Below, piece by piece: positions 63,761-63,982 of a DNA stretch of 64,000 nt. The DNA is taken from assembly GCF_016026235.1 (NCBI RefSeq), contig NZ_CP065613.1. The stretch is one strand, 5' to 3'. Numbering within the stretch: position 1 is the stretch's first letter; each line of letters starts with the position of its first letter. Origin of the DNA: Escherichia coli. Its GTDB lineage: Bacteria; Pseudomonadota; Gammaproteobacteria; Enterobacterales; Enterobacteriaceae. The notes below the pieces were generated by a model. It worked only from the letters and a program-made list of their open reading frames with translations, did not search any database and was not told where the DNA came from. The position numbers and the translations under genes are program-made.

Positions 63761-63852
63761 TTTCAATATTGGTGATCTATAAAACAATATTGAAAATTTC
63801 TTTTTGCTACGCCATTTTTTCAATATTGGTGAGGAGCTTAACAATATTGAAA
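63761..63852. promoter_or_regulatory. two palindromic operator sites (11-bp inverted half-sites, 13-bp spacer) in the caiT-fixA divergent control region; candidate CaiF sites
   Basis: TTTCAATATTG-N13-CAATATTGAAA at 63761-63795 and 63818-63852; extra lone half-site 63877-63887. Confidence 0.55.
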
Positions 63853-63982
63853 GTTGGATTTATCTGCGTGTGACATTTTCAATATTGGTGATTAAAGTTT
63901 TATTTCCAAATTAAAGGGCGTGATATCTGTAATTAACACCACCGATATGAACGACGTTTCCTTCATGATTTCTGGAGATGCA

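What the first reader, a model, noticed from the sequence alone, without database searches (positions are those of the whole stretch)
63761..63891. Iterated palindromic operator array in the caiT-fixA control region
Seen: two copies of TTTCAATATTG-N13-CAATATTGAAA (63761-63795, 63818-63852), centres 57 bp apart, plus a third lone half-site (63877-63887), between divergent caiT and fixA. Established: CaiF is reported to bind two sites built from 11-bp inverted half-sites separated by 13 bp in this region, which fits. The third half-site and the near-exact 57-bp periodicity are not things I can assign to the described model.
Basis: partly seen in the sequence, partly recalled or inferred. Interest (0 to 1): 0.25.

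Follow-up and report, generated by a model that had tools for sequence, protein, structure and literature searches.

The report
CaiF operator array with promoter-embedded box
The two palindromes are the already published binding sites of the carnitine regulator CaiF in E. coli, and the extra lone "half-site" is a genuine, very widely conserved copy of the same box that sits inside the core promoter of the fix operon.

Summary
TTTCAATATTG occurs exactly five times in 127 bp between caiT and fixA and nowhere else in the 64-kb window. The two palindromes (63761-63795 and 63818-63852) match the published CaiF sites F1 and F2 (TTTCAATATTG-N13-CAATATTGAAA) letter for letter, so that part is already known.

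New here:
- The three left-hand boxes are really 16-nt direct repeats, TTTCAATATTGGTGA(T/G), spaced 57 and 59 bp apart.
- The N13 spacers of F1 and F2 hold CRP-like cores.
- The lone box (63877-63887) fills the 17-bp spacer of the predicted fix promoter (GTGACA-17-TAAAGT).

In 56 caiT-fixA regions of Enterobacterales (all whose fetched locus reaches far enough have caiF nearby), the lone box is present in 55. It is near-invariant and lies 59-61 bp from the nearest palindrome, although the linker sequence is free. The number of palindromes varies from 0 to 3. Hafnia, Edwardsiella and their relatives have only the lone box. Fifteen regions with no caiF in the locus have no box at all.

CaiF belongs to the CaiF/GrlA family, and GrlA activates LEE1 from inside a promoter spacer. 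My best reading is that the lone box is a functional, probably ancestral, promoter-proximal CaiF site. I could not read the primary footprint papers. Interest is modest.

The parts
63761..63795 (.). CaiF site F1: TTTCAATATTG-N13-CAATATTGAAA (boxes 63761-71 and 63785-95)
   Evidence: Exact match to the published consensus. Box conservation is 0.96-0.99 in 25 Escherichia, Citrobacter, Salmonella and Phytobacter sequences.
63770..63785 (.). CRP-like core inside F1: GGTGA-TCTATA-AAACA, 7 of 10 to TGTGA-N6-TCACA, centre 63777.5
   Evidence: Read directly. The centre falls at about -126.5 of the inferred fix start. Identifying it with the published CRP site 3 rests on my memory of the Buchet 1998 abstract.
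63818..63852 (.). CaiF site F2: TTTCAATATTG-N13-CAATATTGAAA (boxes 63818-28 and 63842-52)
   Evidence: Present in all Enterobacteriaceae and Morganellaceae loci except for a degenerate right half in Providencia.
63827..63842 (.). CRP-like core inside F2: GGTGA-GGAGCT-TAACA, 8 of 10, centre 63834.5
   Evidence: Read directly. The centre falls at about -69.5 of the inferred fix start. The RegulonDB v8 paper speaks of a CRP pair at fixAp resembling that of acsP2 and of a 'proximal -69.5' position (PMC3531196).
63877..63892 (+). Lone CaiF box H3: TTTCAATATTG plus the GGTGAT extension, with no right half
   Evidence: Conservation is 0.99 within the E. coli clade and near-invariant in 30 species of 17 genera. 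It is present in 55 of 56 caiT-fixA regions that carry CaiF boxes.
63870..63875 (+). Predicted fix promoter -35 hexamer, GTGACA
   Evidence: Promoter scan. A hexamer matching TTGACA at 4 or more of 6 positions stands at this offset in 30 of 56 regions, including Limnobaculum and Edwardsiella.
63893..63898 (+). Predicted fix promoter -10 hexamer, TAAAGT, 17 bp after the -35; the inferred fix mRNA start is about 63904-63906
   Evidence: The arithmetic uses remembered published positions (CRP1 at -41.5 of cai, starts 289 bp apart, CRP2 at -69.5). TAnnGT is kept only in the Escherichia, Citrobacter, Salmonella and Phytobacter clade.
63897..63903 (+). Universally conserved GTTTTAT (TATTAT in the Hafnia group), 10 nt after the box; a second -10-like hexamer
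   Evidence: Conservation is 1.00. A hexamer with 4 or more of 6 matches stands at this offset in 54 of 56 regions.
63920..63929 (+). Conserved downstream block GTGATATCTG (invariant TG.TA), about +15 to +25 of the fix mRNA; function unknown
   Evidence: No Rfam match.
63650..63665 (.). Perfect CRP box TGTGATTGGTATCACA on the cai side
   Evidence: From memory of the Buchet 1998 abstract, this is CRP site 1 at -41.5 of the cai start.
61996..63510 (-). caiT, the L-carnitine/gamma-butyrobetaine antiporter
63983..64000 (+). Start of fixA (MKIITC...), cut off by the end of the window
55846..56241 (+). caiF, the 131-aa regulator that reads the boxes
   Evidence: NCBIfam equivalog NF008549 at 220 bits. 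Pfam CaiF_GrlA. Its only relative in the PDB is GrlA, 4KT5_C.

Best explanation
The region is the shared control region of the divergent caiTABCDE and fixABCX operons. It holds five copies of one CaiF recognition box, with core TTCAATATTG.

Four of the boxes form the two published palindromic sites F1 and F2. In each, two boxes flank a weak CRP core, so CaiF and CRP sit side by side at about -70 and -127 of the fix promoter.

The fifth box stands alone inside the fix core promoter, between the predicted -35 and -10 hexamers (about -28 to -18). I infer that it is a working CaiF site and not a relic: the promoter-proximal contact point from which CaiF helps RNA polymerase, as its relative GrlA does from inside the LEE1 promoter spacer. 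I also infer that the palindromes are upstream modules added in variable number (0 to 3) at a fixed step of about 59 bp, and that they strengthen the response and couple it to CRP.

Shown here: the sequence anatomy, the conservation, the spacing, the co-occurrence with caiF and the family relationship of CaiF to GrlA. Taken from the literature: CaiF binds F1 and F2. Inferred: CaiF occupies the lone box, the exact mRNA start, and the direction of the effect on transcription.
For: 1. Identity with the published sites. The sequence matches the published F1/F2 consensus exactly.

2. The lone box is the same 16-nt unit as the left boxes of F1 and F2.

3. Position. A promoter scan places it in the 17-bp spacer of GTGACA-17-TAAAGT. 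Arithmetic from the perfect CRP box and from the CRP-like cores puts the fix start at 63904-63906, which fits the RegulonDB remark on a -69.5 CRP position at fixAp.

4. Conservation. The block TTCAATATTGGTGA is near-invariant in 30 species from Escherichia to Proteus and Providencia, while the 24-nt linker upstream of it is not conserved. Mean major-allele frequency is 0.99 for the box, against 0.63-0.77 for the linkers and 0.81 for the whole region.

5. Architecture in 56 regions. Counts were 26 with 2 palindromes plus the lone box, 8 with 1 plus the lone box, 7 with 3 plus the lone box, and 9 with the lone box only. Only one region, Entomohabitans, lacks the lone box. The step from the last palindrome to the lone box is 59 bp in 35 regions, 60 in 4 and 61 in 1. 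It is 118 (2 x 59) in 4 Providencia regions.

6. In Hafnia, Edwardsiella, Serratia H1w, Leminorella and Limnobaculum the lone-type box is the only exact box near the promoter, and it still carries the GGTGAT extension followed by a -10-like TATTAT.

7. Co-occurrence. Every region with a box lies in a locus with caiF, wherever the locus reaches far enough. Fifteen caiT-fixA regions of Shewanella and Ferrimonas, whose loci show no caiF, have no box at 1 mismatch or fewer.

8. Within E. coli, the 60-nt lone-box module is exact in 4510 of 5389 genomes. The window differs from K-12 at 16 positions of the intergenic region, and none falls in a box.

9. CaiF is in Pfam CaiF_GrlA, and its only PDB relative is GrlA. 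GrlA is reported to bind the 18-bp spacer of the LEE1 promoter (PMC10877973; promoter sequence in PMC3130263).
Against: - Secondary sources report only two CaiF sites from footprinting, so a lone box may bind weakly or not at all with purified CaiF alone.
- I could not read the primary papers. The mRNA start and the CRP positions therefore rest partly on my memory of the Buchet 1998 abstract. The two ways of computing the start differ by 2 bp.
- The -10 hexamer TAAAGT that fits the E. coli start is not conserved outside the Escherichia/Citrobacter/Salmonella/Phytobacter clade. The universally conserved hexamer lies 5 bp further downstream, which would give a 22-bp spacer. The geometry may therefore differ between lineages.
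- The predicted E. coli spacer is 17 bp, which is not suboptimal, unlike the spacers of GrlA and MerR promoters.
- The whole stretch 63868-63982 is fairly well conserved within the close clade, so part of the box's conservation there could reflect general promoter and leader constraint.
Confidence: 0.62

Rival explanations
1. The lone box is the decayed left half of a former third palindrome. It has no CaiF-related role today and is kept only because it happens to form part of the fix core promoter.
For: The three units share the same left 16 nt, which fits growth of the array by duplication. The surrounding promoter and leader are also well conserved in the close clade. Published descriptions list only two CaiF sites.
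Against: Promoter spacers are normally free to vary. Here the box is better conserved than the flanking -35 and -10 hexamers, and it survives across families in which both hexamers change. No species shows a right half next to it. In the Hafnia group it is the only box present, although caiF is kept. Tandem Repeats Finder reports no tandem repeat in the region, and the units share little beyond the boxes.
Confidence: 0.13
2. The lone box is a negative operator. CaiF bound between -35 and -10 blocks or limits RNA polymerase at the fix promoter, for example when the effector is absent or CaiF is in excess, while F1 and F2 carry the activation.
For: Sites inside a core promoter are typical of repressors, and the predicted 17-bp spacer needs no remodelling.
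Against: CaiF is described only as an activator. Its relative GrlA activates from the same kind of position. In the species that have only this box, a purely negative site would leave caiF with no activating site.
Confidence: 0.15
3. The 16-nt repeats are conserved mainly for CRP (the GTGA half-site), and the lone copy is a third weak CRP site or half-site rather than a CaiF site.
For: GGTGA follows all three forward boxes. The cores inside F1 and F2 match the CRP consensus at 7-8 of 10 positions, at spacings that fit the reported CRP positions.
Against: At the lone box the other CRP half would be TTTTA, giving 6 of 10 overall and lacking both key C residues. The 10 nt that are invariant across species are the CaiF box itself. 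The boxes are absent wherever caiF is absent, although CRP is universal in these bacteria.
Confidence: 0.05

Closest known systems
CaiF sites F1 and F2 of the E. coli cai-fix regulatory region (Buchet et al. 1999, as quoted in PMC12083890 and PMC3680233)
   Same: 63761-95 and 63818-52 are these sites: the same 11-bp boxes, the same 13-bp separation, and the same location between caiT and fixA.
   Different: The lone box at 63877-87 has the same box sequence and the same GGTGAT extension, but it has no partner box and lies in the core promoter. It is not part of the two-site description that I could access.
GrlA at the LEE1 P1 promoter of EHEC/EPEC (Islam et al. 2011, as summarised in PMC10877973)
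   Same: The regulator belongs to the same small family (Pfam CaiF_GrlA; GrlA is the only PDB relative of CaiF). The target lies between the -35 and -10 hexamers of the activated promoter.
   Different: The LEE1 spacer is a suboptimal 18 bp, whereas the predicted fix spacer is 17 bp. I see no convincing sequence similarity between the two spacers (TTTAATGATAATGTATTT against TTTTCAATATTGGTGAT). GrlA is not reported to use upstream palindromes or CRP.
MerR-type activators bound in promoter spacers
   Same: The site lies between -35 and -10. In non-Escherichia lineages the conserved -35-like and -10-like hexamers are 22 bp apart, which is overlong as in MerR promoters.
   Different: MerR proteins bind a dyad as dimers, whereas here there is a single box. 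CaiF is not a MerR-family protein. The E. coli promoter has a normal 17-bp option.
Tandem CRP activation as at acsP2 (CRP at -69.5 and -122.5)
   Same: RegulonDB v8 (PMC3531196) likens the fixAp CRP pair to that of acsP2. The CRP-like cores here compute to about -69.5 and -126.5.
   Different: Here each CRP core is bracketed by two boxes of a second, pathway-specific activator, and the step is 57 bp, not 53.

Membership tests
CaiF palindromic operator (F1/F2 type) | Two 11-bp boxes TTTCAATATTG / CAATATTGAAA in inverted orientation, 13 bp apart | tested here: met
   Exact at 63761-95 and 63818-52, matching the consensus quoted in PMC12083890.
CaiF palindromic operator (F1/F2 type) | The same feature, applied to the third copy at 63877-87 | tested here: not met
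   The position of the expected right box (63901-11) matches at 4 of 11. No species has a right box there. It is a lone box, not a palindromic site.
CaiF regulon site (any architecture) | Lies in the cai-fix control region and co-occurs with the caiF gene | tested here: met
   Boxes occur in all 56 Enterobacterales regions, each with caiF nearby where the locus extends far enough. There are none at 1 mismatch or fewer in 15 regions whose loci show no caiF.
CaiF regulon site (any architecture) | Physically bound by CaiF (footprint, gel shift or ChIP) | not testable with these tools
   Reported for F1 and F2 in secondary sources. Nothing is available for the lone box, and the primary papers are not held.
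CRP site | Match to TGTGA-N6-TCACA, with the key G/C positions in both halves | tested here: inconclusive
   Perfect at 63650-65. The cores inside F2 and F1 match at 8 of 10 and 7 of 10. At the lone box the match is 6 of 10 and the right half lacks both C residues.
Spacer-binding activation (GrlA- or MerR-like) | Activator site located between the -35 and -10 hexamers of the target promoter | tested here: met
   The box occupies 11 of the 17 spacer positions of the predicted GTGACA-17-TAAAGT promoter. This fits a start at 63904-06. Both the promoter and the start are predictions or inferences, not mapped here.
Spacer-binding activation (GrlA- or MerR-like) | Suboptimal (overlong) spacer that the activator compensates for | tested here: inconclusive
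   The spacer is 17 bp with TAAAGT in the E. coli clade. It is 22 bp if the universally conserved hexamer at +21 is the -10, which is the only option in Proteus, Hafnia, Edwardsiella and others.
Spacer-binding activation (GrlA- or MerR-like) | Regulator homologous to GrlA | tested here: met
   Pfam PF07180 CaiF_GrlA at 28.5 bits against a cut-off of 25. GrlA 4KT5_C is the only PDB hit, E 0.001, over residues 4-62.
Recent tandem duplication | Head-to-tail units that are similar along their whole length | tested here: not met
   Tandem Repeats Finder reports nothing. The three units align only at the boxes. The similarity after the right boxes is 76% over 29 nt, and 13 of those nt are the box itself.

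The most novel reading that the evidence does not exclude
The lone box, not the palindromes, is the ancestral and essential CaiF operator. A single CaiF unit would bind inside the fix core promoter, possibly only when loaded with crotonobetainyl-CoA or together with RNA polymerase. That would explain why footprints made in 1999 without the true effector listed only F1 and F2. From there CaiF would switch the promoter on in a GrlA-like way. The palindrome-plus-CRP modules would be later add-ons, stacked at a fixed step of about 59 bp, 0 to 3 per lineage. The 5-bp difference between the E. coli -10 and the universally conserved -10-like hexamer would then mark a lineage-specific rewiring of the same promoter.
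Probability: 0.35. Interest if true: 0.45.

Novelty: new member of a known kind. Interest (0 to 1): 0.3.

Why it matters
The cai-fix region is used as the sensing part of carnitine biosensors and in strain engineering (PMC12083890, PMC3680233). The working model has two CaiF sites.

If the promoter-embedded box is functional, minimal biosensor promoters and mutagenesis designs need to include it. It would also give a second, independent example of a CaiF/GrlA-family protein acting from inside a promoter spacer, which bears on how the virulence regulator GrlA works.

The comparative series of 0, 1, 2 or 3 palindromes in front of one fixed box is a tidy natural example of how an activator array grows. 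Beyond that, this is a refinement of a known regulatory region and not a new kind of system.

Tried and rejected
- Primary papers. Buchet 1999 (PMID 10564497) and Buchet 1998 (PMC107209) are not held. Searches for CaiF, cai-fix, the box sequences and fixAp/caiTp found no open paper that mentions a third box or gives the mapped starts. The only support for a -69.5 CRP position at fixAp is a remark in the RegulonDB v8 paper.
- Recent tandem duplication as the cause of the period. Rejected, because Tandem Repeats Finder finds nothing and the units align only at the boxes.
- A structured RNA in the region. There are no Rfam matches at E up to 1.
- CaiF autoregulation. There is no box near caiF. 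The 1-mismatch hit at 55944 is inside the caiF coding sequence, and hits with 3 mismatches elsewhere are at chance level.
- A leader peptide or an N-terminal extension of fixA from the GTG at 63920. It is in frame in E. coli, but the frame is broken by indels in other species, and no ORF is conserved in the long regions of the Hafnia group.
- Sequence similarity between the LEE1 spacer and the fix spacer. It is not convincing, so only the positional analogy is kept.
- GGTGA at the lone box as a CRP half-site. Judged unlikely (see the rival explanations).

Full report
**1. The observation**

The window region 63400-64000 reads as the first-stage reader described it.
- TTTCAATATTG lies at 63761, 63818 and 63877 on the + strand.
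- Its reverse complement lies at 63785 and 63842, each 13 nt after a forward copy.
- These five are the only exact copies in 64 kb. With one mismatch allowed there are 7 hits, against 1.8 +/- 1.4 in shuffles, and no shuffle reached 7.
- The repeat finder shows that the forward copies belong to a longer direct repeat, TTTCAATATTGGTGA(T/G), with start-to-start spacing of 57 and 59 bp.
- caiT is the ORF 61996-63510 on the minus strand. fixA starts at ATG 63983.
- The window is E. coli. This 601-nt stretch is 97.5% identical to a K-12 derivative and is found in 5394 of 5426 complete genomes.

**2. What is already known**

[quoted passage not shown] 1999). The palindromes at 63761-95 and 63818-52 are therefore the published sites.

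caiF is in the window at 55846-56241. It matches the NCBIfam CaiF equivalog at 220 bits. The primary footprint papers are not in the library.

**3. Anatomy beyond the two-site description**

- *A palindrome inside each box.* Each 11-bp box contains a perfect 8-bp palindrome, CAATATTG. The core centres within F1 and F2 are 21 bp apart, which is two helical turns. This can be read directly.
- *CRP-like cores.* The N13 spacers contain GGTGA-N6-AAACA (centre 63777.5, 7 of 10) and GGTGA-N6-TAACA (centre 63834.5, 8 of 10). A perfect CRP box lies at 63650-65.
- *The inferred mRNA starts.* From memory of the Buchet 1998 abstract, which I cannot check here, CRP site 1 is at -41.5 of cai, sites 2 and 3 are at -69.5 and -126.5 of fix, and the two starts are 289 bp apart. 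Putting these numbers on the sequence gives a fix start at 63904 from the CRP cores and at 63906 from the perfect box plus 289 bp. The two routes agree within 2 bp. The RegulonDB v8 paper independently mentions a CRP pair at fixAp and a proximal -69.5 position.
- *The predicted promoter.* The promoter scan finds one + strand candidate in the region, GTGACA (63870-75), 17 bp, TAAAGT (63893-98), and it fits that start. The 17-bp spacer reads T + TTTCAATATTG + GTGAT. The lone box therefore fills the spacer of the fix core promoter, at about -28 to -18.

**4. Comparative evidence**

A scan of one genome per species with CaiT gave 80 loci. I extracted 72 caiT-fixA intergenic regions from the window, the K-12 locus and these loci.

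- *Co-occurrence with caiF.* All 56 regions from Enterobacterales have boxes. caiF is in the locus wherever the locus reaches far enough. Fifteen regions from Shewanella and Ferrimonas, whose loci show no caiF, have no box at 1 mismatch or fewer.
- *Conservation across genera.* In an alignment of 30 species of 17 genera, the block TTCAATATTGGTGA of the lone box is near-invariant. A variable 5 nt and then an invariant GTTTTAT (TTTAAT in Proteus) follow it. The 24-nt linker between F2 and the lone box is not conserved in sequence.
- *Conservation within the close clade (25 sequences).* The mean major-allele frequency is 0.99 for the lone box and 0.96-0.99 for the F1 and F2 boxes. It is 0.63 and 0.77 for the linkers and 0.81 for the whole region.
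- *Architectures.* Counts were: 2 palindromes plus the lone box in 26 regions; 1 plus the lone box in 8 (Pluralibacter, Yokenella, Atlantibacter, Trabulsiella and others); 3 plus the lone box in 7 (Proteus); and the lone box only in 9 (Hafnia, Edwardsiella, Serratia H1w, Leminorella, Limnobaculum). Budvicia has two lone-type boxes in tandem, 27 bp apart. Only Entomohabitans lacks the lone box.
- *Spacing.* The step from the nearest palindrome to the lone box is 59 bp in 35 regions, 60 in 4 and 61 in 1. It is 118 bp (2 x 59) in 4 Providencia regions. In three of those four the middle site is scored as a lone box because its right half has degenerated. Steps between palindromes are 55-59 bp.
- *Orientation.* The lone box always points towards fixA and never has a right partner.
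- *Within E. coli.* The 60-nt module around the lone box is exact in 4510 of 5389 genomes. The window differs from K-12 at 16 positions of the intergenic region, and none falls in a box.

**5. The regulator**

CaiF matches Pfam CaiF_GrlA. Its only relative among solved structures is GrlA (4KT5_C, E 0.001, residues 4-62). GrlA is described as activating LEE1 by binding the 18-bp spacer between -35 and -10 (PMC10877973). The LEE1 promoter sequence is given in PMC3130263. This is a direct family precedent for a functional site in the position of the lone box.

**6. Interpretation**

F1 and F2 are the known CaiF sites, each bracketing a weak CRP site. The lone box is best explained as a working, probably ancestral, promoter-proximal CaiF site.

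The 57/59-bp period does not come from recent duplication. Tandem Repeats Finder finds nothing, and the units align only at the boxes. It reflects a conserved length over free linker sequence, which indicates an architectural constraint in a CaiF-CRP-RNA polymerase complex. What that constraint is (about 5.4-5.6 helical turns per step) I cannot say.

**7. Weak points**

- Published summaries list only two CaiF footprints.
- The mRNA start is inferred, not read from the primary paper.
- The E. coli -10 hexamer, TAAAGT, is conserved only as TAnnGT, and only in the Escherichia/Citrobacter/Salmonella/Phytobacter clade. The hexamer conserved in 54 of 56 regions lies 5 bp further downstream (TTTTAT, TATTAT or TTTAAT). 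A -35-like GTGACA, GTAACA or ATGACA at the E. coli position also occurs in Limnobaculum and Edwardsiella. Together these would make a 22-bp spacer. Whether other lineages use a different start, or an overlong spacer that CaiF compensates for, remains open.
- A negative role for the box cannot be excluded.

**8. Verdict**

The palindromes are already known. The lone box is an additional site of the same kind. It is real, strongly conserved, and sits in the fix core promoter. It is not part of the two-site model in any source I could read. Interest is modest.

Noticed in passing
window 63920-63929 (also L046, L047, L049, L050, L052, L022, L043 downstream of their lone box): A second conserved block lies downstream of the lone box: GTGATATCTG in the window, with TG.TA invariant in 30 species, and GAATCATGGTATTTCTATTG in the Hafnia group. 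It sits at about +15 to +25 of the inferred fix mRNA. It could be an extended -10 of a second promoter, a downstream operator or a leader element. There is no Rfam match.
   Followed up: partly
window 63897-63903 versus 63893-63898: There are two overlapping -10 candidates. TAAAGT fits the inferred E. coli start but is specific to the close clade. TTTTAT (or TATTAT, TTTAAT), 5 bp downstream, is conserved in 54 of 56 regions. With the conserved -35-like hexamer it would give a 22-bp spacer.
   Followed up: partly
window 63764-71, 63785-92, 63821-28, 63842-49, 63880-87: Every 'half-site' contains a perfect 8-bp palindrome, CAATATTG, so each box could be a self-sufficient binding unit. Core centres within F1 and F2 are 21 bp apart, exactly two helical turns.
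   Followed up: no
window 63690-63752: The stretch between the perfect CRP box and F1 is a rare haplotype. A 60-nt query finds only 92 of 5426 E. coli genomes (the best hits are O145 strains), and the window shows 8 substitutions and one 1-nt indel against K-12 here. The lone-box module, by contrast, is exact in 4510 genomes.
   Followed up: partly
L048 (Budvicia aquatica), about 339 and 312 nt upstream of fixA: The whole lone-box unit (TTTCAATATTGGTGAT-N4-GGTATT.T, 27 bp) is duplicated head to tail.
   Followed up: no
L022, L043, L051 (Leminorella, Limnobaculum), about 35 nt upstream of the fixA start: An extra perfect reverse box, CAATATTGAAA, lies just before fixA, more than 200 nt downstream of the lone forward box. 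Its role is unknown.
   Followed up: no
L030, L036, L038, L039 (Providencia): The middle palindrome has a degenerate right half (for example CAACATGAAAA), while the 59-bp register is kept, so the next intact palindrome is 118 bp from the lone box.
   Followed up: no
window 63920-63982: The GTG at 63920 is in frame with the fixA ATG at 63983, with no stop between them (21 codons). The frame is not kept in other species, for example because of a 14-nt deletion in C. sedlakii, so this is probably coincidence.
   Followed up: yes
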